Positions 2,030 to 62,925 are shown, numbered from the stretch's first letter. The stretch is 64,000 bases of DNA from an uncultured virus (IMG/VR IMGVR_UViG_3300024319_000691) (IMGVR_UViG_3300024319_000691); one strand, 5' to 3'. Translations and numbers: made by a program. Notes: generated by a model from the sequence alone, not told the origin.

Positions 2030-2054
2030 ACAATTTAGTTTTTTTAAGTATAAT
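2028..2054 (+). promoter_or_regulatory. class 2 promoter AAAC-N17-TATAAT
   Basis: Motif match upstream of ORF 2060. Confidence 0.6.
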
Positions 2055-2059
2055 ACAAT

Positions 2060-7046: not shown

Positions 7047-7514
7047 ATGGCAAACATTGACAACGAATGTAAAGATCTAGAAGTAAAAGATTTTTACGAC
7101 CAATCAACAACACACTTAGCAGATATCATGGAAAACCAAAAGAAGATGCAAGAGCAGACTTATGGTTTTAACTTTGATAATATGACAATCCGAGAAATTA
7201 TGGATTTCTGGCACTGTAACACACATGCAGTAGTTGACGAAATTCATGAAATGACAGATGCTCTAGGCGGTATTAAAGACGGAAGTGGTAATGCAGTATG
7301 GAAATACTGGAAAAAAGACTTCACTAAGTATGATAAGTTAAAAATTTCTGACATGTCCGAAGGCGACAAAAAAGAATTGTATATGGAATGGGTAGACATT
7401 CTACACTTCTTTATTAATTACGCCGCTTCAATTGGGCTAGATGCTAAAACAGCATACAACTACTACTTCGCAAAAGCAGAAGAGAATGTTAACCGTCAGA
7501 AAAATAACTATTAA
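7047..7514 (+). CDS. dCTPase/dUTPase (T4 gp56-like, all-alpha NTP pyrophosphatase)
   Basis: DEIHEM, WKYWKK, ELYMEWVDILHFF, KAEENVNRQKNNY. Confidence 0.8.
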   Translation: MANIDNECKDLEVKDFYDQSTTHLADIMENQKKMQEQTYGFNFDNMTIREIMDFWHCNTHAVVDEIHEMTDALGGIKDGSGNAVWKYWKKDFTKYDKLKISDMSEGDKKELYMEWVDILHFFINYAASIGLDAKTAYNYYFAKAEENVNRQKNNY

Positions 7515-8911
7515 TGATATTAGATATTGAACAGAGAGACAGGGATGTTATCATCTCTTACTACGACACCGAAGGTAAAGTAGCATTTAAACAATATCCA
7601 ATTTCACAGTATCAGAACTGGTATGTATGTAATGATAATGATAAAGGCAGAAGTCTAGATCATAAAAACTGGGATGGCAGATCAGTCAAACTAGGAAGTG
7701 CAAGAAGATATAATAAGTTTTCTTTAACTTATTTCTTAGATTCATTACCCGCAAAGGATAAAGAAGAAATCTTTGCATACAATATGCCTAAAACATACTT
7801 CGTCGATATTGAAACTGAAATCGTAGATGGCTTTCCAAAAGCTGAAGAAGCTAAAAGTAGAATCCTATCATTTTCCATAATTACACCAGAACATAAAGCT
7901 ATTGTATTAGGATTGGAAGATATGGATTCTAAAAGCATCCAAAAAATTGAAGACGATACTAATAAGTATTTCAAAGACTTTGATCAGGATTGGGAATTCA
8001 AATATCAGAAATTCGAGTCAGAATATGACATGGTCTATACGTTCTTAATGAAGTTCCTACCTAAGTTTCCAATGATGACAGGCTGGAACTTTATTAATTA
8101 TGATTGGCAATATATTGTAAACAGATGTAAAAGATTACAAATTGATATTGCTGAAGTTTCTATGACACAATCTTTGGATAGAAATGACAGCAGACCCTTA
8201 CATATTGGAATCTTAGATTACATGCAATTATATGATAAGTATGATAGAAGTGTAAAGGTAAAAGAATCTAATGCACTTGATTATGTCTCAGGTCAAGTTC
8301 TTAATGTTAACAAGATTAAATTTACAGGATCTCTACAGGATTTATATAGGGATGATTTTGTAAAATACATTTACTACAATGTAGTCGATTCCGTATTGGT
8401 TTATTATATAGATCAAAAGTTGAAATCGATGGAAGTTCTTTTAACCTTGGCAAACATCACAAAGATGCCTCTATATAAAGCAGCATCGCCAGTGGCAGTT
8501 ACAGAATCTCTGATTGCACGAAAATTATCAGAAGAAGGTAAACGAATTGGATCTGAAAAGAAGGAAGACAGTGAAAAGAATGCACAATATGCCGGTGCTT
8601 ATGTAAAAGAACCCATTACTGGATATTATGCAGGTGTAAGTGCATTTGACTTTGCATCACTATATCCTTCTATAATGAGACAATTTAATATTTCACCTGA
8701 CGCCTTTGTTGAAAAGGTAGCAAAGCATGAAGTCGCTGAGCGAAGAAAGGATAAAGAAGTAATCGTTTGTGAAAACGGAGTAGTCTATAAACAAGAGACT
8801 TCAATGTTAAAGAAAATTCTAGGAGATTTATATGATCAGCGTAAAGATTATAAACAAACCTCATACGAATATTTCACTAAAGCCGACAGACTTAAAAAAA
8901 GATTAAGATAA
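7514..8911 (+). CDS. family B DNA polymerase, N-terminal part (3'-5' exonuclease + motif A)
   Basis: ExoI DIETE, ExoII GWNFINYD, ExoIII YNVVDS, YAGAYV, motif A DFASLYPS; ends in the fingers region. Confidence 0.92.
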   Translation: MILDIEQRDRDVIISYYDTEGKVAFKQYPISQYQNWYVCNDNDKGRSLDHKNWDGRSVKLGSARRYNKFSLTYFLDSLPAKDKEEIFAYNMPKTYFVDIETEIVDGFPKAEEAKSRILSFSIITPEHKAIVLGLEDMDSKSIQKIEDDTNKYFKDFDQDWEFKYQKFESEYDMVYTFLMKFLPKFPMMTGWNFINYDWQYIVNRCKRLQIDIAEVSMTQSLDRNDSRPLHIGILDYMQLYDKYDRSVKVKESNALDYVSGQVLNVNKIKFTGSLQDLYRDDFVKYIYYNVVDSVLVYYIDQKLKSMEVLLTLANITKMPLYKAASPVAVTESLIARKLSEEGKRIGSEKKEDSEKNAQYAGAYVKEPITGYYAGVSAFDFASLYPSIMRQFNISPDAFVEKVAKHEVAERRKDKEVIVCENGVVYKQETSMLKKILGDLYDQRKDYKQTSYEYFTKADRLKKRLR

Positions 8912-8947
8912 TCTTTTTGTCTCGAGAGGCAGTCCATTATTCTACAT

Positions 8948-8956
8948 GAATATATA
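8948..8956 (+). promoter_or_regulatory. class 3 (putative late) motif GAATATATA followed by a 5' stem-loop
   Basis: Motif also seen upstream of structural genes; GAGACCAA...TTGGTCTT hairpin follows. Confidence 0.4.
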
Positions 8957-9039
8957 GACTACTAACGAGACCAATCTGTTACCAGTTGGTCTTTTGTAGA
9001 CTTTAGGAACTAGTTAAAAAATTTAAGAAAACATAATTT

Positions 9040-10047: not shown

Positions 10048-10074
10048 CAAATCAATAATTCTAATATAAAATAT

Positions 10075-11925
10075 ATGATGATAAGAAATTACAACGACGC
10101 ACCAAACCCCGAATACAATGAAAAGGGAAAAGAAAGAAACTTCGGAGAATCTGAAGGATGGAAATTAGGAGTAGACTTCCCAGTATGGGCTAATACTGAA
10201 GTTTATGTAAAAACTGTTTCTAAGGGATATTTACTAGAAGGAGAAACTCCAAAGGATGCATACTGGAGAGTATCGACAACAGTTGCACAAAGATTAAGAA
10301 AGCCAGAATTAGCAAGTAAATTCTTTGATTATATGTGGAAAGGATGGTTAAATCTTGCAACTCCAGTTTTTTCAAACACGGGTTCAGAAAGAGGTCTTCC
10401 AATTTCATGTTTCGGTATAGATGTAGCAGATTCAATTCACGATATAGGTTCAAAGAATTTAGAATTAATGTTACTTGCTAAACATGGAGGCGGTGTTGGT
10501 ATCGGAGTAAATCAGATAAGACCGGCAGGAGCAACCATTACAGGAAACGGAACTTCAGACGGAGTAGTTCCATTTATAAAAATTTATGATTCTACTATTT
10601 TAGCAACTAATCAAGGTTCAGTAAGAAGAGGTGCAGCGTCAGTCAATATAGATATAGAACATGATGATTTTTGGGAATGGTTAGAGGTTAGAGAACCTAA
10701 GGGTGATGTAAATAGACAATGTTTAAACGTACATCAATGTATCGTAGTATCTGACGGGTTTATGCAAAAGATCGAGGCTGGAGATAAAGAAGCTCGTAAA
10801 AGATGGGCCGCTGTGATTAGAAAAAGAAGAGCAACAGGAGAACCTTATATAATGTTTAAGGGTAATATCAATAGAATGAATCCGGATGCGTATAAGCAAA
10901 ATGGTTTAAAGGTTTATATGACTAACATCTGTTCTGAGATTACTTTACACACCGATGAAAATCATTCATTTGTATGTTGTTTATCTTCTGTGAATCTTAA
11001 AAGATATGAAGAATGGAAAGATACTGATTTAATCTATACTGCAACTTACTTTTTAGATGGAGTTCTTCAGGAGTTTATTCATAGAGCGAAATATATGAGA
11101 GGCTTTGAAAATGCAGTAAGATCCGCTGAAAAAGGTAGAGCATTAGGTTTAGGAGTTCTCGGATGGCATACTTATTTACAAGATAGAAATATTCCATTCG
11201 ATTCTTTGACAGCTCAATTTGAAACTAGAAAGATATTTTCTCAAATCAAAGTAGAAAGTGAAAGAGCAAGTAGAGATTTAGCTACAGAATTTGGAGAACC
11301 TCTTTGGTGTGTAGGAACTGGAATGAGAAACACACACTTAAGAGCAATTGCTCCTACTGTTTCTAATTCTAAATTAGCAGGAAATGTTTCACCAGGCATT
11401 GAACCATGGGCAGCAAATGTATTTACTGAACAAACTGCAAAAGGAACTTTTATTAGAAAGAACCCTGCACTTGAAAATATGTTAACTAAGATCAAGCAAA
11501 ATAAGAAAACAGTATGGGACAAAATACTAGAAGACGGTGGTTCAGTTCAAGGCGTTGATGTATTAGGAGAATATTGGGTAAAGGAAGGAAGTAGTGATGC
11601 CCCGATTAAGCAAGCCACTTATGACAAATTAACAGATCACGAAAAGGATCTTTATATTTCTGTTAAAGATGTATTTAGAACCTTTAAAGAAATTAATCAA
11701 ATGGAATTAGTTAAACAAGCTGGTGTAAGACAACAATATATTGATCAAGCAGTTTCATTAAATTTAGCTTTTCCTACACAGGCTGAACCTAAATATATTA
11801 ATCAAGTTCATTTAGAAGCTTATAAGCAGGGAATAAAAACTCTTTATTATATGAGAACAGAATCTGTATTAAGAGGAGACATCGCACAGCGAGCAATGGA
11901 AGATTGTTTAGCATGTGATGGATAA
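10075..11925 (+). CDS. nrdA: ribonucleotide reductase class I alpha subunit (no obvious ATP-cone)
   Basis: ATPVFSN, ISCF, GGGVG, QGSVRRGA, TNICSE, AIAPT, KTLYYMR, C-terminal CLAC. Confidence 0.95.
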   Translation: MMIRNYNDAPNPEYNEKGKERNFGESEGWKLGVDFPVWANTEVYVKTVSKGYLLEGETPKDAYWRVSTTVAQRLRKPELASKFFDYMWKGWLNLATPVFSNTGSERGLPISCFGIDVADSIHDIGSKNLELMLLAKHGGGVGIGVNQIRPAGATITGNGTSDGVVPFIKIYDSTILATNQGSVRRGAASVNIDIEHDDFWEWLEVREPKGDVNRQCLNVHQCIVVSDGFMQKIEAGDKEARKRWAAVIRKRRATGEPYIMFKGNINRMNPDAYKQNGLKVYMTNICSEITLHTDENHSFVCCLSSVNLKRYEEWKDTDLIYTATYFLDGVLQEFIHRAKYMRGFENAVRSAEKGRALGLGVLGWHTYLQDRNIPFDSLTAQFETRKIFSQIKVESERASRDLATEFGEPLWCVGTGMRNTHLRAIAPTVSNSKLAGNVSPGIEPWAANVFTEQTAKGTFIRKNPALENMLTKIKQNKKTVWDKILEDGGSVQGVDVLGEYWVKEGSSDAPIKQATYDKLTDHEKDLYISVKDVFRTFKEINQMELVKQAGVRQQYIDQAVSLNLAFPTQAEPKYINQVHLEAYKQGIKTLYYMRTESVLRGDIAQRAMEDCLACDG

Positions 11926-11985
11926 GATTAGTTGTGGTTAAGTCCACTTCTTAGGACCGAGATAGTTCTCGGATCGAGGCCAGGA

Positions 11986-12014
11986 GTTCGCTACTTCCTG
12001 GCCTCACTTTTTTT
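11986..12014 (+). terminator. intrinsic terminator after nrdA
   Basis: 3' arm and T-run of the GAGGCCAGGA...TCCTGGCCTC stem (stem begins at about 11976). Confidence 0.7.
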
Positions 12015-12018
12015 ACTG

Positions 12019-12045
12019 AAACTATTTGTGATTTTTGTGTAGAAT
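12019..12045 (+). promoter_or_regulatory. class 2 promoter AAAC-N17-TAGAAT
   Basis: Motif match upstream of the clamp and polymerase C-half. Confidence 0.6.
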
Positions 12046-12071
12046 AATAAACAAATAAAAATTATACATTC

Positions 12072-12827
12072 ATGAAAATTTCAATCAGTAAGGTCGATTC
12101 AAACAACTTCATCGGCTTCGTTAATAGACTTAAAGTAATTGATTCTTTTGTCTATTTTAAATTAAAAGATGGTGTCGTACAGGCATCCGCTTATTTACCA
12201 CAAAGAGATGCTGTTAAGCATCACAGAATGCCGATTTCTCAAGTTTTTCAAATCGAAGATGGTGAAATCTCTACAGACAAAGAATTAAAGATTGCATTCT
12301 TTGACGCTTCTAAAATAACAGATGCATTCAAACAATTTGACTATGATGCTATTTCAGCTGAAATCGAATTCGTTGAAAACGAAGAAGATTGTGTTGCAAC
12401 TACATTCAAAATATTTAATGATGAATTAGAAATTACACTTGCATGTTCAGAGCCATCTTTAGGTTATAAAGATCTAACTGATGCACAGATTCAAGGTATC
12501 TTTAACACCGAAGCTTCTACTTTTAAATTCGATTTAGATTACACTTCACTTGCAAAGGTAAGAAACCTATTCTCTTTAGATAAAGAAGAAACGTTCTCAA
12601 TAAATGCAAACGGAAATGGTGTAAAGCTTTTAGGAAAAACCTACAACATGTTAGTAACACCAGATTATGACGGTGAATCAGGAACTAACGTTACATTATT
12701 CAAAAAATATCTTAACCTTTTAGATAAAGAAGATTACACTGCCCATGTATTAGACAATAGAGTAGTTCTTAGATCTAATGATTCAGAAACTTTGCTAACG
12801 ATTGCAACTTGCCAAACAGCAGAGTAA
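12072..12827 (+). CDS. probable sliding clamp (gp45-like)
   Basis: 251-aa acidic alpha/beta protein directly upstream of the polymerase; clamp loader present elsewhere; no exact motif. Confidence 0.5.
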   Translation: MKISISKVDSNNFIGFVNRLKVIDSFVYFKLKDGVVQASAYLPQRDAVKHHRMPISQVFQIEDGEISTDKELKIAFFDASKITDAFKQFDYDAISAEIEFVENEEDCVATTFKIFNDELEITLACSEPSLGYKDLTDAQIQGIFNTEASTFKFDLDYTSLAKVRNLFSLDKEETFSINANGNGVKLLGKTYNMLVTPDYDGESGTNVTLFKKYLNLLDKEDYTAHVLDNRVVLRSNDSETLLTIATCQTAE

Positions 12828-12830: not shown

Positions 12831-14030
12831 ATGGATATAAACACACTAATTAACAAGCCCGAAGACGACCTTACGCGGGATGAAATGCAAACCTTGGCGG
12901 ATCACTATCAAACAATGTCCGCCAAGTTTACTGCATACGAACAGGCCGTTAAAGTAACTCTTAACTCGATCTATGGTGCATTTGGTAATAAGTGGTTTCA
13001 CTTTTTTAATATAGACATTGCAGAATCTATTACACTACAAGGACAGAATGCAATTCTATATTCTGAAAAGATTCTTAATAAATATTTTCAAGAGTTTTGG
13101 CCTAAAGATACTGTGGTCCATGAACATTTCAATATTTCTATTAAGAATAAATTAGTAAGACCTTCCGTGGTTTATATTGATACAGATTCATGTTACGTTC
13201 AGTTTGAAGAAATGTATGAATCTATTGAATGGCTAGGAGATAATAAACTACCAATTGATAAGTTTATTATGGAATTATATACGTTCAGAATCAAAGACTA
13301 TATCACGAAATGTATGGCAAAGTATGCCGAAGTTACGAACACAGACAACTTTTTATATTTCGATTTAGAAACAATTGCATATTCAGGAATATGGTTAGCT
13401 AAAAAGAAATATTTACAAGACATTGCATGGGAAGATAAGCTCGAAGTAGACGATAGATACCCTTCTCTTAAGAAGATTAAGACGATTGGATTTGATACTA
13501 TTCAATCTTCTACTCCTACATTAGCAAGAAAGCATTTGACTGAAGCTCTTAAATTGATTTTATCTGAAAAGCCAACTGCAGAGATGTTAAGTAGATTAGT
13601 TTCTTTTTTGAAAACGGCAAAGAAAGAGTTTAAGATGTCTAATGTTGATGAAATAGCTTTCAATAAAAGAACTAATAATATTGAAAAATACATTGTAGAT
13701 GATACGATAGAATTTCAATATGGTTTAAAATGTCCTCCGAACGTCAAGGCAGCAGGATTCTATAACTTCTTAATGAATCAGAATCCAAAATATAAAAACA
13801 AGTATAAAATGATTGGTAATGGCGAAAAGCTAAAATTATATCATTGTAAACATAATGTATGTGAAATGTATGCATATCAACCAGGTGCCCATCCTTATGA
13901 AATTGCACCACAGGTAGATTATGAAACACAATTTGAAAAATCTGTAATAGATCCTATCAATAGAGTATTATCTTCAGTAGGTCTTCAGAGACTAAACAGA
14001 AATCTAATATATTCATCTTCATTATTCTAA
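12831..14030 (+). CDS. family B DNA polymerase, C-terminal part (motifs B, C, thumb)
   Basis: KVTLNSIYG (motif B), SITLQG, YIDTDS (motif C), KKKY, SSTP, C-terminal SSLF clamp-binding-like tail. Confidence 0.92.
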   Translation: MDINTLINKPEDDLTRDEMQTLADHYQTMSAKFTAYEQAVKVTLNSIYGAFGNKWFHFFNIDIAESITLQGQNAILYSEKILNKYFQEFWPKDTVVHEHFNISIKNKLVRPSVVYIDTDSCYVQFEEMYESIEWLGDNKLPIDKFIMELYTFRIKDYITKCMAKYAEVTNTDNFLYFDLETIAYSGIWLAKKKYLQDIAWEDKLEVDDRYPSLKKIKTIGFDTIQSSTPTLARKHLTEALKLILSEKPTAEMLSRLVSFLKTAKKEFKMSNVDEIAFNKRTNNIEKYIVDDTIEFQYGLKCPPNVKAAGFYNFLMNQNPKYKNKYKMIGNGEKLKLYHCKHNVCEMYAYQPGAHPYEIAPQVDYETQFEKSVIDPINRVLSSVGLQRLNRNLIYSSSLF

Positions 14031-15495: not shown

Positions 15496-15806
15496 TGAAG
15501 TTGAACATAAACAAGATAAACGAAGATAAGCTTCCAATTAAATATATTCTAGGAATACAAGAAGAATTAGAATCTTTTCCCGATGCATTTGACATTATGC
15601 ATATATTTATAACTAGAGCAGTGAGACAGCCTGACAGACAAAAGGCGTCTTTCACCAAACATGCTCTCAATAAATATTTCGCAAAGGGGAAAAATGAAAA
15701 TGTAGAATCCGGATTAAATGAAGCAATTGGTATGGGACTAATAGAACAAACCAATTCGAACGAAGGTAAAGAAGCTTATAAAATATTAATTAACCCATTC
15801 CTATGA
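15495..15806 (+). CDS. hypothetical protein (possible winged helix)
   Basis: 103-aa coupled ORF; C-terminal helix-GLIEQ-strand pattern. Confidence 0.55.
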   Translation: MKLNINKINEDKLPIKYILGIQEELESFPDAFDIMHIFITRAVRQPDRQKASFTKHALNKYFAKGKNENVESGLNEAIGMGLIEQTNSNEGKEAYKILINPFL

Positions 15807-16396
15807 TAACAATTAGAGACAACTTTATTAAAGATGAAAAACTCCTCAGAGATATTGCAAATGATAACACATTTTTTGCAGATCCAGGTGTTTATTACTG
15901 GTGGAAAGGATGGTTCAACGAAGAACCAGGCCATGAACCTACAGTAAAACAAAGGCTTATATCAGCTATTTGGGCAAATGATTGCCCAATATCTGAAGTA
16001 TGGGATATAGCAGGATTTGAATATTGGACAGGTATTCAGTCTGCTAATCCTACATTAGGACATAAGGACAATTTAGGATTTCATTTTGATAAAGATGAAT
16101 CTTGGTTCAAGAAAACCAACGGAGAAGAAATAGTAAGACCTGTAATAGGCACTGTATATTATCCGCCACAGCCTGAGTTTGAAGGAGGAGAATTAATAGT
16201 TCATACTGCAGGAAAGGATAAAGCGCCTGATGTAATTCAAACCCGACCTAATAGATTAATTATATTTAGAGCAGGTGATGATGTCCATGCAGTCGATACG
16301 GTTACTAAGGGAACTAGAAAGGCAATTGCAATTAATTTATGGTCAGATGTACCTTTTGCAAAAACAAATGGTGATTTAGTGGTAGAACAAGTATAA
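15803..16396 (+). CDS. 2OG-Fe(II) oxygenase
   Basis: HFD (HxD), FEGGEL, PNRLIIF, HAV, R..IAINLW. Confidence 0.8.
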   Translation: MITIRDNFIKDEKLLRDIANDNTFFADPGVYYWWKGWFNEEPGHEPTVKQRLISAIWANDCPISEVWDIAGFEYWTGIQSANPTLGHKDNLGFHFDKDESWFKKTNGEEIVRPVIGTVYYPPQPEFEGGELIVHTAGKDKAPDVIQTRPNRLIIFRAGDDVHAVDTVTKGTRKAIAINLWSDVPFAKTNGDLVVEQV

Positions 16397-24114: not shown

Positions 24115-24498
24115 GTGGCTAAAAGAAGAAAATCAAAAAACTATTTAAATAACAGAGACCTCTTTGATCAAATGGTCCTTTCAAAAGAACAGGATAAATT
24201 AACAAGAGATGCTGAAAAAATGCTAATTCTCTTGGCAGAAAAGGCGATCAATAGGATGAGGTATGTTAGTGAAGATGATAGGAACGATTGTCTACAATTC
24301 GCTATATTAGACCTTTTAAAATATTGGAGAAACTTCAATCCTAAATATCCAAATGCATTTGCTTATTTCACAGAGATAGCAAAGAGAGGATACGCCAAAG
24401 GATGGAATAAGATTCACCCTCAAAAATACAAAGGAACTCTATCTATAGACAAAGGATCAGGCAACTCTGAAAATCAAACAGGAATTTATAGCATCTAA
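24115..24498 (+). CDS. late sigma factor (gp55-like, short)
   Basis: NYLNNRDL, DCLQFAI, NFNPKYPNAFAYFTEIA; GTG start. Confidence 0.75.
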   Translation: MAKRRKSKNYLNNRDLFDQMVLSKEQDKLTRDAEKMLILLAEKAINRMRYVSEDDRNDCLQFAILDLLKYWRNFNPKYPNAFAYFTEIAKRGYAKGWNKIHPQKYKGTLSIDKGSGNSENQTGIYSI

Positions 24499-24986
24499 TG
24501 TCAATAAAGAATGTCAAACCAACTAAAAATTCAGGATTTAATCAAGGTTATTATAAACCTAATAATCCTTCTAAATATGCAGGACCTACTCCTATCATAT
24601 ATAGAAGTTCCTGGGAACGTAAGTTTATGATGTGGTGTGACAAAAATGAAAAGGTAAGTATGTGGTCAAGCGAACCAGTTGAAATACCATATTGGTCTAG
24701 ACAAGATTCTACCAAAAGGAAATATTACCCTGATTTTTATTTTAAGGCAATTCAGCCCGATAAAACTACTAAAGAATATCTAGTAGAAATCAAACCAAAG
24801 CAACAGATAATAAAACCAGAGCCTCCTAGAGTAAATTCTAAGAAGGCTCTTAAGTCATATAAATTTTTAGCAGAGCAATATGTTAAAAATATGGATAAAT
24901 ATAATGCAGCTAAAGAATTCTGCTCTCAAAGAAATTGGAACTTCATAGTTCTAACAGAAGAAACTATAATAAATGGGCTACATTAA
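24498..24986 (+). CDS. head completion nuclease (gp4-like, TnsA fold)
   Basis: YRSSWERKFM, WSSE, YYPDF, VEIKP. Confidence 0.85.
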   Translation: MSIKNVKPTKNSGFNQGYYKPNNPSKYAGPTPIIYRSSWERKFMMWCDKNEKVSMWSSEPVEIPYWSRQDSTKRKYYPDFYFKAIQPDKTTKEYLVEIKPKQQIIKPEPPRVNSKKALKSYKFLAEQYVKNMDKYNAAKEFCSQRNWNFIVLTEETIINGLH

Positions 24987-51098: not shown

Positions 51099-51677
51099 AT
51101 GAAATCAAGAAAATTTAGCATTTCAGGATTATTAGAATTAAGACCTGGAAAATTTGAAGATGAAAGAGGAGAGTTTATAGAAACATTCAAATCTTCAAAA
51201 CTTAAAGAACTTGGAATTACAGAAGAATTTCTACAAGATAATCAATCTGTTTCTAAGAAAGGAGTATTTAGAGGAATACATTTACAAACCGGAGATAGTG
51301 CTCAAGGAAAATTAGTAAGAGTTTCTAAAGGAGCTGTTGTAGATTTCGCAGTAGATCTTAGACCTGGTTCCCCATCCTATGGAGAATGGACTTATGTATT
51401 ATTAAGTGCGCACGTAGGAAATCAATTTTGGATTCCGGCCGGATTTGGCCATGCGTTTCTTGCCCTTGAGGATGATACAATCTTTTCATATAAATGTACT
51501 AAAGAATATGATAAGAGTGCAGAGGAGTGTCTCCTATGGACCGACAAGGATATAGATCTGACTATAGATAAGAGTATACTTACACAATTCAATATATCAG
51601 ACATCTTAGTCTCCGAAAAGGATAAAGAAGGTATTACGCTAAAGGAATATACTAAAAAATATGGCGTACTGGTTTAA
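51099..51677 (+). CDS. rmlC: dTDP-4-dehydrorhamnose 3,5-epimerase
   Basis: DERGEF, QDNQSVS, RGIHLQ, QGKLVRV, VDLRPGSP, IPAGFGHAF. Confidence 0.93.
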   Translation: MKSRKFSISGLLELRPGKFEDERGEFIETFKSSKLKELGITEEFLQDNQSVSKKGVFRGIHLQTGDSAQGKLVRVSKGAVVDFAVDLRPGSPSYGEWTYVLLSAHVGNQFWIPAGFGHAFLALEDDTIFSYKCTKEYDKSAEECLLWTDKDIDLTIDKSILTQFNISDILVSEKDKEGITLKEYTKKYGVLV

Positions 51678-52471: not shown

Positions 52472-52930
52472 ATGAAAACAGTAATTTTCGATTTAGATGG
52501 AACTCTCGCTCTTATCGACGATAGGAGAGCTATTTCCACAAAAGATAATGGTAAAATGGATTGGGACACTTTCTTCGATCCAGCAAACATTCAATTAGAT
52601 AAACCGAATTGGCCAGTTATTCACATGGCACGACTTCTTAAAAAAGATGGACATCGTGTTGTAATTTTCAGTGGAAGATCTAAAGCTACTAAAGACGCAA
52701 CGAAAGATTGGTTAAACGATCTTGATATTCCATTTGATGTTTTAAAGATGCGACCAACTGCTGGAGGTTTTAAGTTTATGAAAGATGATGTATTAAAGAA
52801 AAAGTGGCTTGATGATTTATTTCCAAACACTGACGATATTACATGTGTCTTTGACGATAGAGATAAAGTAGTTCAAATGTGGAGAGATAATGGTATCACT
52901 TGCTTTCAAGTAGCTGACGGTAATTTTTAA
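52472..52930 (+). CDS. HAD-family phosphatase (PseT/PNK 3'-phosphatase-like)
   Basis: FDLDGTLA, FSGR, MRP, K...K, FDDRDKVVQMWR. Confidence 0.85.
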   Translation: MKTVIFDLDGTLALIDDRRAISTKDNGKMDWDTFFDPANIQLDKPNWPVIHMARLLKKDGHRVVIFSGRSKATKDATKDWLNDLDIPFDVLKMRPTAGGFKFMKDDVLKKKWLDDLFPNTDDITCVFDDRDKVVQMWRDNGITCFQVADGNF

Positions 52931-53225: not shown

Positions 53226-53452
53226 TGGGAATAGAAGGATTATTTTTAACAATTTTTTTAGGAGCATTTGCATTCGTAATGGGATGGATGAAAGGATGTG
53301 AAGACGAGCAATCGAGAATTAGAGAAGCTTTCAGGTCAGAAGAATATGACTATGAAGGCTTCTTTAACGTTCTTGAAAAATACGAAGAGGAGAAGGAAGC
53401 GGCTAAGCAATGGGCTAAGTTTAATAAAAAAAGAAAAAAAAATCAAAAATAA
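53225..53452 (+). CDS. small membrane protein
   Basis: N-terminal hydrophobic helix. Confidence 0.6.
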   Translation: MGIEGLFLTIFLGAFAFVMGWMKGCEDEQSRIREAFRSEEYDYEGFFNVLEKYEEEKEAAKQWAKFNKKRKKNQK

Positions 53453-53463
53453 ACAGCCTAGAA

Positions 53464-53495
53464 TTTTTTTATCTCAGATTTTTTGCTTATATTAG
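53464..53495 (+). promoter_or_regulatory. class 1 (early) promoter repeat, copy 4
   Basis: TTTTTTTATCTCAGATTTTTTGCTTATATTAG. Confidence 0.7.
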
Positions 53496-53524
53496 TAGAG
53501 TAATAATTAATAAAAGAAACCATT

Positions 53525-53725
53525 ATGGCAGAATTAAAAAACAAACAATATATGTTCACCTTTGAAGGTGGCGGTTGGAACACAGTGTGGGCCAAAACTA
53601 AACGCGGTGCAATTAAAGCCGCTCTTAAAGAATACTCAGATTCAAATACTTTGAATCCACGTATTGATTCTTTTCATAAAGCTACCGAAGAAGGTCTTCG
53701 AAATGCAATGTCTCTTTTCTACTAA
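53525..53725 (+). CDS. hypothetical protein
   Basis: ORF after class 1 promoter. Confidence 0.65.
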   Translation: MAELKNKQYMFTFEGGGWNTVWAKTKRGAIKAALKEYSDSNTLNPRIDSFHKATEEGLRNAMSLFY

Positions 53726-53735
53726 AAAAATAAAA

Positions 53736-54080
53736 ATGAATAAACTACAATCACTTAAATGCGTTGAAGTAACTTCACAGACGCAAGCCGACAATGGAAC
53801 TATTTGTTACCATGACCCTATCACGAATACTGACTATCTTTCTTATGAAAGTGGATATATTCGTAGAGCATATACCCGTAATTACGAAAATTACAAAGGA
53901 TATGAATGGTCTCATCGAACGATCTATCAATTAAATCCTACTAAGAAATCAATGCATGAATGGAATGGAACCACATGGCCTTCAACTGAAAGGATTATGA
54001 TCGAAGATCCAAGCGAGCGTTTAGACAGACTTGCAAAGGCTGTAGTTAATTATAGAAAAACTCTTAGTAAGAATGCGTAA
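53736..54080 (+). CDS. hypothetical protein
   Basis: Likely start MNKLQSLK at 53736. Confidence 0.65.
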   Translation: MNKLQSLKCVEVTSQTQADNGTICYHDPITNTDYLSYESGYIRRAYTRNYENYKGYEWSHRTIYQLNPTKKSMHEWNGTTWPSTERIMIEDPSERLDRLAKAVVNYRKTLSKNA

Positions 54081-54189
54081 ACTAAAACATACACTTAAGC
54101 AGATTGATAGCGTAGACATCGTCCTAATTACTGCATTTGGACTTTATATGATTCTACTTGTTTCTAACCTTTTAAAAATGGTAAACTAA
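54073..54189 (+). CDS. 38-aa membrane peptide (not in ORF track)
   Basis: MRKLKHTLKQIDSVDIVLITAFGLYMILLVSNLLKMVN; overlaps neighbours' stop and start. Confidence 0.45.
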   Translation: MRKLKHTLKQIDSVDIVLITAFGLYMILLVSNLLKMVN

Positions 54190-54422
54190 TGAGATATACA
54201 GTAACATTTGAAGTATACATTGATGCAGATAACGATAAACATGCTCTTTCAAAGGGTGAACTTATCGCTGACAATCAAGAAAATAAGTACGGCCAATCAT
54301 GGGATGTAACTGAATTACACCAAACTCCTTTCGCTTCTTTTAATACAAAAAAAGTAGATATTCAAAAACTTAGAACGGAGCAAATGATTAAATCAATAGA
54401 AGAAGATCCATTACCGTTTTAA
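54189..54422 (+). CDS. hypothetical protein
   Basis: 77-aa ORF. Confidence 0.6.
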   Translation: MRYTVTFEVYIDADNDKHALSKGELIADNQENKYGQSWDVTELHQTPFASFNTKKVDIQKLRTEQMIKSIEEDPLPF

Positions 54423-54423
54423 T

Positions 54424-54615
54424 ATGATAACTTATCTATTTATTGGGGTAATTTATTCTTTTATTATGCACCTTTCATGGGATCATCATAGAAGAAATGA
54501 TAAAAACTTTGGATTAGAAAAGTGGACACTTAAAGAATCTTTGGTATTAACGGTAATTTGGCCACTATACCTTCTATATTTCATTTATTCTTTTTTTAAA
54601 GGATTAGGAGATTAA
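54424..54615 (+). CDS. small two-TM membrane protein
   Basis: YLFIGVIYS...LTVIWPLYLLY. Confidence 0.6.
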   Translation: MITYLFIGVIYSFIMHLSWDHHRRNDKNFGLEKWTLKESLVLTVIWPLYLLYFIYSFFKGLGD

Positions 54616-54640
54616 ACTTTTTATAAAACTCATATATAAT
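54614..54640 (+). promoter_or_regulatory. class 2 promoter AAAC-N17-TATAAT
   Basis: Motif match upstream of glycosylase. Confidence 0.55.
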
Positions 54641-54644
54641 CAAT

Positions 54645-55478
54645 ATGCCAGAATTAGCAGAATTAAAATTTACAGCAGATTACGTTAACCAAATGTCGGA
54701 AGGCATGAAATATGTTAACGTAGTAAAAAACCCAGAACATAAGTGTGAAGATCTAAATATACCCTTTAAGTTTTTTAAAATTAAAGCAGAATCTAGGGGT
54801 AAGGAAATGGTTCTTCTTATTTTAGATAATGATTCTGATAAAATTATTCCAATTCGAATGACAATGGGAATGAGCGGGTATTTTAAATTGACTAATACTG
54901 GTGACGAAGCAAAACATTCACACCTTAAATTTCATCGCAAAGACGGAACAACCCTTTCATTTGTAGATATGCGTAGATTTGGCAAGTGGAAGCAGGGTTT
55001 ATGGTGGAATGATACACGAGGGGAGGATCCAACGACCTCCTTTGATTCTTTTTGGAAAGATATAATGACTAATCTAACGTCACGCGCTTTCAGGAAACCA
55101 CTCTATGAAGTCCTGATGAACCAAAAATATTTTAATGGAATAGGAAATTACCTAAGAGCGGAGATTATTTATAGAGCCAAAGATGTAGATCCGTTTCTTC
55201 CAGCTGGAATGCAACTAGCAAAATACCCTAAAATACTAGAACTATGTAAAGATATTCCAATGCTAGCATACGCAAAAGGAGGAGGAAGCATTAAAGATTG
55301 GGATAATCCATTCGGAACAGATGCTATTCAAGAAAAATTCATGCTATGTTATGGAAATCCTGTTATGTCGAAAAGAAAAGATTCGAATGGAAGAACATTT
55401 TGGTATGATTCTAAATGGGACAATGTTCCTACAAGTAGAGACGATTTAAAAGAATATTTCCATGGCGATAGAAGCTAA
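54645..55478 (+). CDS. nei: Fpg/Nei-family DNA glycosylase/AP lyase, NEIL1-like
   Basis: MPELAE, RGKE, GMSG, FVDMRRFGKW, H2TH NQKYFNGIGNYLRAEI, zincless-finger-like DSNGRTFWY. Confidence 0.9.
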   Translation: MPELAELKFTADYVNQMSEGMKYVNVVKNPEHKCEDLNIPFKFFKIKAESRGKEMVLLILDNDSDKIIPIRMTMGMSGYFKLTNTGDEAKHSHLKFHRKDGTTLSFVDMRRFGKWKQGLWWNDTRGEDPTTSFDSFWKDIMTNLTSRAFRKPLYEVLMNQKYFNGIGNYLRAEIIYRAKDVDPFLPAGMQLAKYPKILELCKDIPMLAYAKGGGSIKDWDNPFGTDAIQEKFMLCYGNPVMSKRKDSNGRTFWYDSKWDNVPTSRDDLKEYFHGDRS

Positions 55479-55647
55479 GAAGTGGCTTAACGAAAACGAA
55501 TGGCCAGATAATAATATAGACAGTGATGCATTTTCTCATTACACTAAAATGAGCAGTATCATGGAACAATATGCCAGAGAATATCATGCTAAGAAATTAG
55601 AAGAAGCTCGAAAAAAAGAAGTAACACAATTTAAAAAGTTCTTATGA
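55462..55647 (+). CDS. hypothetical protein
   Basis: 61-aa coupled ORF. Confidence 0.6.
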   Translation: MAIEAKKWLNENEWPDNNIDSDAFSHYTKMSSIMEQYAREYHAKKLEEARKKEVTQFKKFL

Positions 55648-56276
55648 AGAAACTAGAACGCATGCAAAACTTAATCGTAGTTGGACATCCTGATAAAAAA
55701 TCATTTTGTTATAACGGAATTTTTAAAACAATCCAAGAATCTCTATTAGATAGTGATTACCTAAATGAAATACAGGTAATAGATTTATATAGAGATGATT
55801 TTTCTCAACCAAGAAAAGATCTTATTAAGGAATATCAAGATGCTGTAACATGGGCGGATAGAATTTACTTCGTATCTCCTGTTTGGTGGTTTAGATTAAC
55901 ACCTAGAATGGAAATATTCTTTGACGAAGTATTTACCCCAGGTTTTGCGTATAAGTTTGTTCCCCTTTTCGGAGCATACGCGTATCCAAAGCCATTCTTA
56001 AGTGATAAAAAGGTAAGGACATATATAACCCATGGAGCTCCTTCATTACCCGTAAGAACTCTATATTTAAACTCAGTTAAATTACGTTTAGTGATGGGAG
56101 TATTTACATTTGTATTTGGATGGAATATTTCAAGATGGTTAAAGACAAAACAATTTTGGTCAGTTCCCTTCGTGAGCGATGCAAAAAGAAAGAAATATTT
56201 AGACAGAGTTAAAAAAGATATTAAGAGAGATCTTAAAAAACATCAAACATTACCTATGCAACATGAAAGTATATAG
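55644..56276 (+). CDS. NAD(P)H:quinone oxidoreductase, flavodoxin-like fold
   Basis: GHPDKKSF, DLYRDDF, PVWW, DEVFTPGFAY. Confidence 0.85.
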   Translation: MKKLERMQNLIVVGHPDKKSFCYNGIFKTIQESLLDSDYLNEIQVIDLYRDDFSQPRKDLIKEYQDAVTWADRIYFVSPVWWFRLTPRMEIFFDEVFTPGFAYKFVPLFGAYAYPKPFLSDKKVRTYITHGAPSLPVRTLYLNSVKLRLVMGVFTFVFGWNISRWLKTKQFWSVPFVSDAKRKKYLDRVKKDIKRDLKKHQTLPMQHESI

Positions 56277-56520: not shown

Positions 56521-57414
56521 ATGAAAAACGTATTAGTCACAGGTGGTGCAGGATTTGTCGGAAGCAACCTCATTAAACACCTACAGGAAACCTACCCAAA
56601 AATTAAAATAACTTCATTAGATAATTACTTCACGGGAAAAGAAGAAAATCATGTTCCTGGCGTAACCTATTATAGAGGACATACTTGGGAAGCAGATACT
56701 ATTTTTGAAAAATTAACAGAAGAAAATTACTTTGACACTGTATTTCACTTTGGAGAATATAGTAGAATTGTTCAATCGTTTGAAGATATTGATTTTGTTC
56801 ATAGGTCTATTCTATCTGGAACACCTGTTATATTAGAACTATGTAGAAAATGGAATTCAAAGTTAATTTATTCTGCATCTAGTTCTAAATTCGGTAACAA
56901 CGGTGAAGATGAGAATCTTTCTCCTTATGCTTGGATGAAATCTAAGATGGTAGAATTAATCAAAAACTATAATACATGGTATGATCTTCAATATGAGATC
57001 TGTTATTTCTTTAATGTATATGGACCTGGCCAAATTACATCAGGTGATTATGCAACAGTTGTCGGTATTTTTGAAAGACAATTTAAAGCAGGTGAAAAGT
57101 GTTCAGTAGTTTCTCCTGGAAATCAAAGCAGAGACTTCACACACGTTGAAGACGTAGTTACAGCTCTTGGATTAGCAGCACAGAGAAAAGACAATCACGA
57201 ATGGCACCTGAGAAGCGGAGTTAATACTACAATGATAGAATTAGCAGAAATGTATGGTGATTGGGTAATGATTCCTGAAAGAAGAGGCGAAAGGTTTACA
57301 AGCGAAGACTTCCCATCAGACACTGAAGAAAAATTAGGCTGGAAACCAACTTGGAAATTACAAGATTGGGTAAATTTAGTAACATCATCAAAACAAGAAA
57401 AAATTAATGCATAA
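56521..57414 (+). CDS. NAD-dependent nucleotide-sugar epimerase/dehydratase
   Basis: TGGAGFVGS, ASSS, YAWMK (YxxxK), FNVYGP, RDFTHVEDV. Confidence 0.88.
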   Translation: MKNVLVTGGAGFVGSNLIKHLQETYPKIKITSLDNYFTGKEENHVPGVTYYRGHTWEADTIFEKLTEENYFDTVFHFGEYSRIVQSFEDIDFVHRSILSGTPVILELCRKWNSKLIYSASSSKFGNNGEDENLSPYAWMKSKMVELIKNYNTWYDLQYEICYFFNVYGPGQITSGDYATVVGIFERQFKAGEKCSVVSPGNQSRDFTHVEDVVTALGLAAQRKDNHEWHLRSGVNTTMIELAEMYGDWVMIPERRGERFTSEDFPSDTEEKLGWKPTWKLQDWVNLVTSSKQEKINA

Positions 57415-61647: not shown

Positions 61648-62925
61648 ATGCTGAAATACTCAATGATAGCCTTTCTGGGGCTTTTCCTAGTTACTAGCGC
61701 CTATGCGCAAACCTGTGATTTAACACTCATAAGTCAAACACCACCTGCCACAACAGAAGATGACCATTCTTTTGTAATTGAATTTGTTAATGCAGAAAAT
61801 TGTGGATGTAATGAATTTACTCAATACGATGGAAATACTTGCGATGGCAATGGGTCTAGTTCCGTAAATAATAATGAAAATGTATCTCATCTTGTTTTTG
61901 GTATTCATTATGTAAATGAAATCACTGGAGAAGACTTAGGAGAAAACACAGATTGTACTTCTACAACATTTCATCCAGGTTGGTCATATACTAATGTTAC
62001 AAATTGGGGTGGTTGGGAAACTGGCGATGTTGTTACTATTAATATAAATCCACCATTTGCTTGGGAATGTATTTTAGCCACACCTCTTGAGGGATATTGT
62101 TGGGAAGTAGTAATATGGCAGATTAATCTTTCTCAAACTGCGGGTTATGATGATTTTCCAGATAACGGATGGACTGTTGGTAATAGTTTTAATCAAACGC
62201 AAACATATCCTGATATTAATATAGATGATAATAGAATAGCTGTTTGTTATGATCCTTGTGTACCTGACACTATAATCGAATACATTACTGATACGATTTA
62301 TATAGAAACTATTGATACTCTTTATGTAACTGATACTATTATTGAATATGTAGACAATTTTATTACTGATACTCTTTATGTAGAAACCATTGACACAGTA
62401 TATGTTGATGTTGAAGTTTTCGTTGAGGTTTTTATCACCGATACTATTACTGAAATTGAGTACATTACAGAATATGTTACTGACACTCTTTTTATTACAA
62501 CTGTCGATACAGTTGAAGTTATTGTATATGAATTCTTAACAGATACGGTTTATGAGTATATTTCTATTGATTGTGAAACTGGATTAGAATGTATTGATGA
62601 TCCTGGATTAACTTGCCCAGATTGGACTTCAGTTTATCTTCCAAATACATTTACACCAAATAATGATGGTTTAAATGATACATGGCAAATGGTTTATGAT
62701 TTAGAATGTTGGGTCGATGTAGAATTTAAAATATTTAATAGATGGGGTGACATGATCTATTCAGGTATGGGTGATTATTACGATTCATATCCTTATTGGG
62801 ATGGAAGTGTAAATGGTGGTAATCACTATGCATCTGATGGCGTTTACACATATACGTTCTACGCAAGAAAATTAAACTCAACCGAAATCTTTCAAAGACA
62901 CGGACATATAACAATATTTAGATAA
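61648..62925 (+). CDS. secreted protein with T9SS type-B (gliding-motility-associated) C-terminal domain
   Basis: Signal peptide ...SAYA/Q; D/T/E/I/Y-rich repeats; YLPNTFTPNNDGLNDTW...IFNRWGDMIY...WDG...GVYTY. Confidence 0.85.
   Translation: MLKYSMIAFLGLFLVTSAYAQTCDLTLISQTPPATTEDDHSFVIEFVNAENCGCNEFTQYDGNTCDGNGSSSVNNNENVSHLVFGIHYVNEITGEDLGENTDCTSTTFHPGWSYTNVTNWGGWETGDVVTININPPFAWECILATPLEGYCWEVVIWQINLSQTAGYDDFPDNGWTVGNSFNQTQTYPDINIDDNRIAVCYDPCVPDTIIEYITDTIYIETIDTLYVTDTIIEYVDNFITDTLYVETIDTVYVDVEVFVEVFITDTITEIEYITEYVTDTLFITTVDTVEVIVYEFLTDTVYEYISIDCETGLECIDDPGLTCPDWTSVYLPNTFTPNNDGLNDTWQMVYDLECWVDVEFKIFNRWGDMIYSGMGDYYDSYPYWDGSVNGGNHYASDGVYTYTFYARKLNSTEIFQRHGHITIFR

What the first reader, a model, noticed from the sequence alone, without database searches (positions are those of the whole stretch)
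54645..55478. Glycosylase that looks closer to animal NEIL1 than to bacterial Fpg/Nei
Seen: SRGKEM, GMSGYF, KHSHLKF, LSFVDMRRFGKW, AFRKPLYEVLMNQKYFNGIGNYLRAEIIYR...PF, ILELCKDIP, CYGNPVMS...DSNGRTFW, and no four-Cys zinc finger. From memory, human NEIL1 has colinear ARGKEL, GMSGSF, RHAHLRF, LCFVDIRRFGRW, AFDRPICEALLDQRFFNGIGNYLRAEILYR..PF, LLELCHSVP, CYGMPGMS..DRHGRTIW. Inference: a phage member of the NEIL1 clade, relevant to the origin of eukaryotic NEIL1. It may repair oxidised pyrimidines in a modified genome, or process modified bases.
Basis: partly seen in the sequence, partly recalled or inferred. Interest (0 to 1): 0.7.

Follow-up and report, generated by a model that had tools for sequence, protein, structure and literature searches.

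The report
NEIL1-type repair glycosylase in marine phage
A large uncultured T4-like seawater phage carries an intact DNA-repair enzyme far closer to the NEIL1 enzyme of animals and amoebae than to bacterial Fpg/Nei, and its mostly phage-borne family is NEIL1's nearest kin, though who gave the gene to whom stays open.

Summary
ORF 54645-55478 (+, 277 aa) carries every quoted motif and has no Cys4 zinc finger. By sequence it matches human NEIL1 at E 7e-39, against 1e-8 for mimivirus Nei1 and 2e-7 for E. coli Fpg. A template-free model superposes on NEIL1 at Z 30.7, against 24.1 for MutM and 22.6 for MvNei1.

Catalytic Pro2, Glu3, Lys53, the Met76/Arg110/Phe112 triad and finger Arg250 are invariant in the alignments. 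dN/dS is about 0.11.

The window is a T4-like myovirus from seawater. Relatives lie on 138 IMG/VR contigs. None was found in 800 other Bacteroidota genomes.

In trees the tail-less forms plus eukaryotic NEIL1 separate from Fpg at 99/100. Eukaryotes form one clade. Sister versus nested placement is unresolved (AU p 0.22).

Most likely it is a bifunctional glycosylase/beta,delta-lyase that repairs oxidised bases in phage DNA. A T4 Pnk-type 3'-phosphatase, the polymerase and a ligase are available in this phage, but the phosphatase is not a conserved partner.

This scan found the same family earlier in at least four other phage genomes. I found no paper describing it.

The parts
54645..55478 (+). 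NEIL1-type Fpg/Nei DNA glycosylase/AP lyase gene (277 aa, catalytic core only, no C-terminal tail)
   Evidence: ORF. Human NEIL1 E 7e-39. Model Z 30.7 to NEIL1. dN/dS about 0.11.
54645..54989 (+). N-terminal catalytic domain (residues 1-115) with Pro2, Glu3, Glu6, Lys53 and Met76
   Evidence: PF01149 at 2.7e-12 over residues 1-115. Invariant columns.
55056..55268 (+). Helix-two-turn-helix DNA-binding region (residues 138-208), including the NQKYFNGIGNYLRAEIIYR motif
   Evidence: PF06831 at 4.6e-5, 23.8 bits, below its 34.7 cut-off. Q160, F163, G167, N168, Y169, L170, R171, E173 and R177 are invariant with eukaryotic NEIL1.
55275..55334 (+). Flexible loop (residues 211-230) at the place of NEIL1's lesion-recognition loop. 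The phage type reads GG-x-IKDW-x-NP and is 4 residues longer than the vertebrate GKGY..DP
   Evidence: pLDDT 67 and 62 in these two blocks of ten. Alignment. Human numbering.
55335..55409 (+). Zincless finger (residues 231-255): a beta-hairpin with invariant Arg250 and no zinc ligands
   Evidence: PF09292 Neil1-DNA_bind at 3.1e-5, 24.1 bits against a 25 cut-off. Strands 242-245 and 251-254 in the model. R250 invariant.
52472..52930 (+). Stand-alone T4 Pnk-type 3'-phosphatase domain (152 aa). Inferred to remove the 3'-phosphate left by beta,delta-elimination in this phage; not a conserved partner
   Evidence: PF25109 at 1.2e-30. Matches T4 Pnk residues 160-301 and Capnocytophaga Pnkp1. Over the cut-off in only 4 of 10 NEIL1-bearing records.
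55644..56276 (+). Flavodoxin-like-fold (NAD(P)H quinone reductase type) gene immediately downstream, the most conserved annotated close neighbour
   Evidence: PF02525 at 3.2e-21. Found within the flanks held of 9/9, 6/6, 21/24, 5/13 and 0/28 loci across identity bands.
7514..8911 (+). Family B DNA polymerase, N-terminal piece (inferred gap-filling polymerase)
   Evidence: PF03104 and PF00136 profile positions 22-137.
12831..14030 (+). Family B DNA polymerase, C-terminal piece
   Evidence: PF00136 profile positions 149-238.

Best explanation
The gene encodes an active, phage-borne enzyme of the NEIL1 branch of the Fpg/Nei superfamily, reduced to the catalytic core. The N-terminal Pro2 amine (after Met removal) would attack C1' of a damaged nucleotide flipped out of the helix. 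Glu3 and Lys53 would assist base release. Met76, Arg110 and Phe112 would fill the gap in the helix. The H2TH motif and the zincless finger (Arg250) would hold the DNA backbone. The Schiff-base intermediate would then resolve by beta,delta-elimination, leaving a one-nucleotide gap with a 3'-phosphate. In this phage the 3'-phosphate could be removed by its own T4 Pnk-type phosphatase, the gap filled by its family B polymerase and sealed by its ATP-dependent ligase. In relatives that lack the phosphatase, host enzymes would have to do that step. The likely biological role is repair of oxidised bases (oxidised pyrimidines, formamidopyrimidines, hydantoins) in phage DNA damaged in sunlit seawater, as T4 endonuclease V does for UV dimers. 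Shown here: homology, fold, conserved catalytic residues, purifying selection and phage location. Inferred: chemistry, substrates, hand-off to the other enzymes and biological role.
For: Homology and fold: the NEIL1 versus MvNei1/Fpg/Nei scores are in the observation check. blastp to tuatara NEIL1 gives 164 bits and 35% identity over residues 1-255. That is as good as three amoebozoan NEIL1s (142-160 bits) and near a choanoflagellate's (179), while E. coli Fpg and Nei reach 41 and 38. The AlphaFold2 model was built from 66 tail-less sequences without templates and has pLDDT 91.9. All of Foldseek's listed top matches are human NEIL1. VIA gives Z 30.7, rmsd 2.0 A over 254 residues, against MutM 24.1 and MvNei1 22.6. 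Active site: P2, E3, K53, E54, G75, Q160, G167, Y169, P183 and R250 are invariant in 66 sequences. P2, E3, E6, K53, M76, R110, F112 and R250 are invariant with eight named and no-name eukaryotic NEIL1s. Selection: dN/dS is 0.11 against three loci with unsaturated dS of 0.61-0.72. Phage location: the window holds a Gp20 portal, Gp23 capsid, T4-type terminase and clamp loader. Nine IMG/VR contigs carry a 100% identical protein and also hold all 20 neighbouring genes tested. 5 of 5 large NEIL1-bearing records (183-318 kb) have a T4 portal. Downstream enzymes: phosphatase, polymerase, and ATP ligase in the same record and in 5 of 5 records searched. Metatranscriptome contigs from 4 of 4 runs laid cover the gene, and two contigs span it whole.
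Against: No activity was measured. The loop at the place of NEIL1's lesion-recognition loop differs: Gly and Ile stand where human NEIL1 has K/R242 and Y244, and there is a 4-residue insertion with a conserved Trp, so substrate range may differ. The phosphatase is not a conserved partner. It is within the flanks held only in close relatives. It is over the cut-off in 4 of 10 records, and in neither of the two records that are at least 96% complete (one of those has an 18.6-bit match). H2TH and PF09292 both score below Pfam's cut-offs. RNA-library contigs do not prove transcription, because DNA carry-over is possible.
Confidence: 0.7

Rival explanations
1. It acts on modified rather than damaged bases. 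It might trim or police the phage's own hypermodified DNA, attack competing phages or host DNA that carry unusual bases, or deal with abasic sites made by host defence glycosylases.
For: The window has a DNA alpha-glucosyltransferase homologue (3e-18) and many sugar-nucleotide enzymes. The substrate loop differs from vertebrate NEIL1. A preprint reports that overexpressed bacterial Fpg gives about 100-fold protection against a 7-deazaguanine phage (passages read in 10.1101/2025.10.29.685425).
Against: No modification gene travels with this gene. Across 80 loci the conserved neighbours are a flavodoxin-like gene and a guanylate-kinase-like to sigma-factor block. No dCMP or dUMP hydroxymethylase was seen in the 102 kb held, but that record is only 34% complete. 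The damage-repair catalytic set is fully conserved.
Confidence: 0.15
2. It is an ordinary bacterial Fpg/Nei picked up from the host, and its likeness to NEIL1 is superficial.
For: NCBIfam's best model is bacterial fpg (1.8e-20). Pfam's N-terminal domain is shared by the whole superfamily.
Against: The fpg model scores 73 bits against a cut-off of 203, and nei scores 34 against 252. There is no zinc finger. Among 400 other genomes of the Flavobacteriaceae MAG's family the best match is 32.6 bits, and no match reaches E 1e-10 in 400 other genomes of its phylum. Trees separate it from Fpg at 97 and at 99/100.
Confidence: 0.02
3. It is a eukaryotic NEIL1 sequence that entered the record by contamination or chimeric assembly.
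For: Its similarity to NEIL1 equals that of protist NEIL1s.
Against: GC is about 33% throughout the window, with no break at the gene. It has the same strand and packing as its neighbours. The identical gene sits in contigs from nine other IMG/VR records that hold all 20 neighbouring genes tested. There are 138 viral relatives, graded from 53 to 100% identity. It lacks the eukaryotic insert after the H2TH and the basic tail.
Confidence: 0.01
4. It is a retained but catalytically idle DNA-binding protein (pseudo-enzyme).
For: None specific. Activity was not measured.
Against: The nucleophile and all helper residues are invariant across 66 and 13 sequences. dN/dS is 0.11.
Confidence: 0.04

Closest known systems
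Eukaryotic NEIL1 (endonuclease VIII-like 1; human structures 1TDH, 4NRV, 5ITQ-5ITY, 6LWA-6LWR, 8FTJ)
   Same: Colinear over the whole catalytic core at 31-35% identity. It shares Pro2/Glu3/Lys, the Met/Arg/Phe helix-filling triad, a near-identical H2TH motif and a zincless finger with the conserved Arg. Z 30.7, rmsd 2.0 A over 254 residues.
   Different: It has no basic, disordered C-terminal tail. It lacks the roughly 20-residue insert after the H2TH that most of the aligned eukaryotes have, including the one vertebrate. The lesion loop lacks the K/R242 and Y244 equivalents and is 4 residues longer with a conserved Trp. It is encoded by a bacteriophage.
Mimivirus Nei1 (MvNei1, 'viral NEIL1 ortholog'; 3A42, 3A45/3A46, 3VK7/3VK8)
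   Same: A virus-encoded Fpg/Nei enzyme. The zincless finger is recalled from the literature, not tested here.
   Different: It is much more distant: 37 bits to the phage protein and only 28 bits to a vertebrate NEIL1, with Z 22.6. By these scores the phage family is far closer to NEIL1 than MvNei1 is.
Bacterial Fpg/MutM and Nei (E. coli 1K82, 1K3W)
   Same: Same superfamily fold and the same N-terminal Pro/Glu chemistry (Z 22-24).
   Different: Those proteins have a Cys4 zinc finger (recalled knowledge; the paper PMC3188539 read states it for the bacterial clades). Identity is about 20%. They score 18-34 bits and fall well under the NCBIfam cut-offs.
T4 endonuclease V (DenV), a phage-encoded glycosylase/AP lyase for UV dimers
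   Same: A functional precedent, recalled knowledge: a T4-type phage carries its own bifunctional glycosylase to repair its DNA. A DenV-family gene (PF03013) is present in 2 of 5 NEIL1-bearing records.
   Different: Unrelated fold and lesion class. No DenV was found in the 102 kb held for this phage.
Mammalian NEIL1-PNKP, AP-endonuclease-independent base excision repair
   Same: The logic is recalled knowledge: beta,delta-elimination leaves a 3'-phosphate that a polynucleotide 3'-phosphatase removes. This phage has such a phosphatase 1.7 kb upstream.
   Different: The phage phosphatase is the T4 Pnk type and has no kinase domain. The pairing is not conserved among relatives.

Membership tests
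NEIL1 clade of Fpg/Nei | N-terminal Pro2 nucleophile with Glu3 and the conserved Lys (human K54) | tested here: met
   The protein starts MPE. P2, E3 and K53 are invariant in 66 and in 13 sequences, and align to the human residues.
NEIL1 clade of Fpg/Nei | Helix-filling triad (human Met81, Arg118, Phe120; numbering recalled) | tested here: met
   M76, R110 and F112 are invariant with eukaryotic NEIL1 and align to GMSG and RRFG of human NEIL1.
NEIL1 clade of Fpg/Nei | H2TH DNA-binding motif | tested here: met
   PF06831 at 4.6e-5, below the curated cut-off. The FNGIGNYLRAEI(I/L)YR motif is nearly identical to human NEIL1.
NEIL1 clade of Fpg/Nei | Zincless finger: a beta-hairpin without Cys4 but with the conserved Arg (human R277) | tested here: met
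   No CxxC. PF09292 scores 24.1 bits against a 25 cut-off. Hairpin at 242-245 and 251-254. R250 invariant.
NEIL1 clade of Fpg/Nei | Closer to NEIL1 than to any other Fpg/Nei branch, and grouping with it in a tree | tested here: met
   136.6 bits to NEIL1 against at most 37 to the others. The ingroup separates from Fpg at 97 and 99/100. It lies outside the eukaryotic crown clade, which has SH-aLRT 99 in the two quick trees and 90/66 in the careful tree. MvNei1, plant/fungal Fpg, actinobacterial Nei and NEIL2/3 could not be put in the tree.
Vertebrate NEIL1 (narrow sense) | Lesion-recognition loop with K/R242 and Y244 | tested here: not met
   Gly and Ile align there, and the loop is 4 residues longer with a conserved Trp. 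The choanoflagellate, euglenid and amoebozoan NEIL1s also lack GKGY, so this feature does not define the wider clade.
Vertebrate NEIL1 (narrow sense) | Disordered basic C-terminal interaction tail | tested here: not met
   The protein ends 24 residues after the finger's conserved Trp253. Most aligned eukaryotic homologues carry K/R-rich tails of about 60-200 residues, but two are as short as the phage forms.
NEIL1 clade of Fpg/Nei | Glycosylase plus beta,delta-lyase activity on oxidised pyrimidines, Fapy and hydantoin lesions | not testable with these tools
   Needs enzyme assays.
Bacterial Fpg (MutM) | Cys4 zinc finger and a score over the equivalog cut-off | tested here: not met
   No CxxC. 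TIGR00577 scores 73.4 against 203.3, and NF002211 scores 71.9 against 212.
Bacterial Nei (endonuclease VIII) | Score over the equivalog cut-off | tested here: not met
   NF007763 scores 34.4 against 252. It scores 17.5 bits to 1K3W.

The most novel reading that the evidence does not exclude
Eukaryotic NEIL1 was captured from a large T4-like phage, or from the phage-bacterial gene pool, before Amoebozoa and animals or choanoflagellates diverged. The tail-less forms would then be the ancestral stock, and the eukaryotic insert and basic tail would be later additions. Both quick trees place the single eukaryotic clade inside the tail-less diversity. The careful tree and the AU test neither confirm nor reject this.
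Probability: 0.3. Interest if true: 0.8.

Novelty: new member of a known kind. Interest (0 to 1): 0.6.

Why it matters
NEIL1 is treated in the repair literature as an animal enzyme. The 2011 Fpg/Nei clade survey read names the clade 'MeNeil1', and mimivirus Nei1 is treated as its only viral counterpart. Here a compact 277-aa phage version is as close to vertebrate NEIL1 as amoebozoan NEIL1s are, and far closer than MvNei1. It belongs to a large family: 1186 cluster representatives at 90% identity, and 137 of the 50%-identity clusters at E <= 1e-30, eukaryotic NEIL1s included. This makes three things testable: the origin of NEIL1 and its zincless finger, a minimal tail-less model enzyme for structure and mechanism work, and the idea that big marine phages carry their own oxidative-damage repair.

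Tried and rejected
1. Cultured-phage records. tblastn found only 8 records, all at or below 32.5% identity and Fpg-like, several of them unverified records. Megablast of 19 kb found one 68-base match. No cultured relative is available.

2. The phosphatase as an obligate partner was rejected.

3. Pairing with an MBD4/HhH glycosylase, a lead from earlier scan notes. PF00730 was over the cut-off in 0 of 5 records.

4. A hydroxymethylase to back a glucosyl-hmC genome. None was seen among the ORFs of at least 100 aa (120 inside the window) that were scanned from the 102 kb record. The record is 34% complete, so nothing follows from this.

5. Provenance of deep-branching tail-less representatives. 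A P0138 scan of IMG/VR found nothing. P0145 found only relatives at or below 42% identity. Only 7 of 86 short representatives are at least 50% identical to a fetched viral locus. All ten looked up are unnamed metagenome proteins. My 'phage' label on tree rows therefore rests on architecture and on Atlas taxon shares, not on proof.

6. Promoter and terminator scan: fewer hits than in shuffles.

7. Transcription. RNA-library contigs cover the gene, but DNA carry-over cannot be excluded.

8. E. coli Nei was an unstable long branch (5.25) in the careful tree.

9. The window's own assembly is not held, so record G001 was used instead.

Full report
**Observation.** The ORF listing shows one ATG-started ORF at 54645-55478 on the + strand, 277 aa. 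It has three cysteines in all (C34, C201, C235) and no CxxC pair. GC content is about 33% across the window, with no break at the gene.

**What the protein is.**
- Pfam finds the Fpg/Nei N-terminal catalytic domain (2.7e-12, residues 1-115).
- It also finds the NEIL1-specific finger domain PF09292 (3.1e-5; 24.1 bits against a cut-off of 25) and H2TH (4.6e-5, below its cut-off).
- NCBIfam's bacterial fpg and nei equivalogs score 73 against 203 and 34 against 252. PHROGs gives only a family of unknown function.
- Against all PDB sequences, the fifteen best distinct sequences are human NEIL1 (E 7e-39 to 5e-37, 131-137 bits). Then come mimivirus Nei1 (37 bits), E. coli Fpg (33.6), plant Fpg (23), E. 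coli Nei (17.5), NEIL2 (14) and mimivirus Nei2 (11.8).
- For comparison, a vertebrate NEIL1 (tuatara, P0172) scores only 28 bits to MvNei1. By these scores the phage protein is far closer to NEIL1 than the published 'viral NEIL1 ortholog' is.
- blastp to tuatara NEIL1 gives 164 bits and 35% identity over residues 1-255 for the phage protein. Three amoebozoan NEIL1s give 142-160, a choanoflagellate 179, a ctenophore 214, and E. coli Fpg and Nei 41 and 38.

**Fold.** The AlphaFold2 model was made from an alignment of the window protein and 65 tail-less homologues, with no templates and no eukaryotic rows. It has mean pLDDT 91.9 and pTM 0.87.
- All rows Foldseek listed (down to rank 50) are human NEIL1 chains, with TM about 0.8.
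- VIA-align gives Z 30.7, rmsd 2.0 A over 254 residues at 33% identity to NEIL1. MutM reaches 24.1 and MvNei1 22.6.
- The model shows the finger as a hairpin (strands 242-245 and 251-254).
- It has a low-confidence loop at 211-230, where NEIL1 has its flexible lesion-recognition loop.

**Active site and differences from NEIL1.** In 66 tail-less sequences the invariant residues are M1, P2, E3, K53, E54, G75, Q160, G167, Y169, P183 and R250.

With eight eukaryotic rows added (seven named, one unnamed), P2, E3, E6, K53, M76, R110, F112, the H2TH core and R250 stay invariant.

Three differences stand out:
- The phage forms lack an insert of about 20 residues after the H2TH that most of the aligned eukaryotes have.
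- They lack the basic C-terminal tail.
- Their lesion loop reads GG-x-IKDW-x-NP, where vertebrates read GKGY..DP. Gly and Ile therefore stand at the human 242 and 244 positions.

The protist NEIL1s also lack GKGY, so that loop defines vertebrate NEIL1 rather than the wider clade.

**A real gene under selection.** Against three loci with unsaturated dS (0.61-0.72), dN/dS is 0.108-0.114. It stays at 0.10-0.18 at greater distances, where dS is near saturation (15 of my 80 loci were compared, chosen to span the identity range).

**Genome.** The window encodes:
- a T4-type portal, prohead protease, Gp23 capsid, terminase, sheath and clamp loader;
- a RecA/UvsX-like protein, DnaB-like helicase, Mre11/Rad50-like pair and RNR;
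- a family B polymerase in two pieces, a DNA alpha-glucosyltransferase homologue, several sugar-nucleotide enzymes and a sigma factor;
- a protein with a CHU_C type IX secretion domain, and two tRNAs.

It matches IMG/VR record G001, which is 102.5 kb and estimated 34% complete. The rest of that record adds gp32, a UvsW-like helicase and an ATP-dependent DNA ligase.

The habitat is seawater. A Bacteroidota host is inferred only from two things. One is the CHU_C domain. The other is a related phage contig binned into a Flavobacteriaceae MAG, where L002 is the same 41,865-bp contig as IMG/VR locus L035.

**Distribution.**
- The 5.8-billion-protein search gave 1186 hits at E <= 1e-5. The 120 listed are 69-97% identical, all from metagenomes, and some are auto-named 'endonuclease VIII-like 1' by JGI.
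- The exhaustive search of 50%-identity representatives gave 1904 hits at E <= 1e-3 and 137 at E <= 1e-30.
- IMG/VR holds 138 relatives of the window protein, of which 80 were fetched (53-100% identity).
- 5 of 5 large bearing records (183-318 kb, one with terminal repeats and estimated 100% complete) have a T4-type portal.
- The Atlas labels the nearest clusters 78-93% viral, mostly Uroviricota, among the members that have a taxon.
- The only bacterial hit is the MAG that carries the phage contig. In 400 other genomes of its family the best match is 32.6 bits, and it is Fpg-like. In 400 other genomes of its phylum none reaches E 1e-10. These are samples, so 'not found in those searched' is all that can be said.
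- No cultured-phage record has a close relative.

**Phylogeny, rows used.** From the 150 listed representatives I kept the 120 that start with MPE and are at least 240 aa long. The 30 dropped were fragments or N-terminally different. I added the window protein and five outgroups: E. coli Fpg, E. coli Nei and three Fpg-type proteins from 'phage' records.

**Phylogeny, results.**
- Quick tree (126 rows): the NEIL1-like ingroup is separated at SH-aLRT 97. All 34 long rows plus 7 shorter ones form one clade at 99, placed inside the tail-less diversity.
- Look-ups name members of that clade as tuatara, snail, oyster, sponge, ctenophore, choanoflagellate, three amoebozoans, a euglenid and an MMETSP transcript. 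11 of the 21 'eukaryote' rows in my reduced set are so named.
- Careful tree: 75 rows, made up of 44 tail-less, 21 eukaryote-clade and 10 outgroups, five of them Flavobacteriaceae Fpg. Fpg is separated from the rest at 99/100. The eukaryotes form one clade at 90/66, and in 92% of bootstrap trees. The tail-less rows are one group in 13% of bootstrap trees. E. coli Nei is an unstable long branch.
- AU test holding the 44 tail-less rows together: delta lnL 33, p 0.221. The group was named after seeing a tree.

The phage-type family is therefore NEIL1's nearest kin among what I could include. Sister versus nested placement, and so the direction of transfer, stay open. MvNei1, plant/fungal Fpg, actinobacterial Nei and NEIL2/3 could not be included, because no tool here gave me their sequences.

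**Neighbourhood and pathway.** I searched the flanks held at each of the 80 loci (up to 8 kb on each side) for the window's neighbouring genes.
- Conserved are the short ORF and the flavodoxin-like gene just downstream. The flavodoxin-like gene is found in 21 of 24 loci in the 70-85% identity band, 5 of 13 in the 60-70% band and 0 of 28 in the 50-60% band.
- Also conserved is a block from a guanylate-kinase-like gene to the sigma factor (found in 13-18 of 24, 13 and 28 loci per band). Many loci are cut by contig ends.
- The T4 Pnk-type phosphatase at 52472-52930 is found in those flanks only in the 15 closest loci and three others.
- The phosphatase is over Pfam's cut-off in 4 of 10 bearing records (G001, G791, G792, G797). 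It is over the cut-off in neither of the two records that are at least 96% complete.
- ATP ligase is present in 5 of 5 records, a DenV-type gene in 2 of 5 and HhH-GPD over the cut-off in 0 of 5.

The NEIL1-to-3'-phosphatase-to-polymerase-to-ligase route is therefore available in this phage. It is not a conserved cassette.

**Expression.** Six metatranscriptomic runs hold 66-99% of the sampled words of a 5.1-kb stretch. In the four runs laid, contigs at 95% identity or more cover the gene. Two contigs (53466-55588 and 53491-55821) span it whole. Contigs cannot show strand or level, and DNA carry-over is possible.

**Literature.** Five full-text searches returned no paper on a phage NEIL1-type enzyme among the titles and abstract openings listed. 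In the passages read, 'NEIL1 ortholog' refers to MvNei1.
- In PMC3188539 I read passages only. It names the NEIL1 clade 'MeNeil1' among nine Fpg/Nei clades and has no phage clade.
- In PMC9611531 the single passage is a giant-virus Fpg hit in a table.
- In the preprint 10.1101/2025.10.29.685425 the passages concern host defence glycosylases, not phage-encoded ones.
- Subscription journals are not in the library, so 'not in print' holds only for these searches.

**Earlier scan notes.** The same family was reported before from at least four other phage genomes and one Poribacteria genome, with the same reading. My tests agree independently. I did not test the bacterial members.

**Verdict.** This is a functional-looking, tail-less NEIL1-type glycosylase of a large marine T4-like phage. 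It most likely repairs oxidised bases in phage DNA. It is an undescribed member of a known enzyme kind, and its main interest is evolutionary.

Noticed in passing
window 7514-8911 and 12831-14030, with 9040-12827 between: The family B DNA polymerase is in two ORFs (exonuclease plus the start of the polymerase domain, then the rest). They are separated by about 3.9 kb holding RNR small and large subunit genes and an unannotated 251-aa ORF.
   Followed up: no
window 5787-7010; also 1637-3712, 51099-51677, 56521-57414; L095:5869-7737; L096:2958-3776, 7325-8014 and 8663-9127: There is a DNA alpha-glucosyltransferase homologue (3e-18). There is also an unusually rich set of sugar-nucleotide genes: four cytidylyltransferase-like, three epimerase/dehydratase, RmlC, RmlD-like, a eukaryotic-type phosphomannomutase and an MGS-like gene. 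This could mean glycosylated DNA or surface-sugar remodelling. No hydroxymethylase was seen in the 102 kb held.
   Followed up: partly
window 55644-56276: A flavodoxin-like-fold (quinone reductase type) gene sits directly downstream of the glycosylase. It stays there in 21 of 24 loci of the 70-85% identity band. A shared oxidative-stress theme is possible.
   Followed up: partly
window 24498-24986: A TnsA-like endonuclease N-terminal domain protein (6.6e-17) lies just upstream of the portal gene. It may be a homing-type nuclease.
   Followed up: no
window 61648-62925: A phage protein with a CHU_C type IX secretion sorting domain (1.2e-13) hints at a Bacteroidota host.
   Followed up: no
window 15803-16396 and L096:3902-4492: Two 2OG-Fe(II) oxygenase genes occur in one phage record.
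   Followed up: no
window 53418-53520: RNA-library contigs from several runs end or begin here, in the A/T-rich gap before ORF 53525. Two runs show a contig that joins 53514 back to 52400 with 175 other letters between. This could be strain variation or a repeat.
   Followed up: no
window 54902: All four RNA-library runs read C where the window has T, at a third codon position of the glycosylase gene. This is a strain variant.
   Followed up: no
G795:C1:92089-93633: In a related 318-kb phage record the ATP ligase match is split into two frames, one with an in-frame TAG.
   Followed up: no
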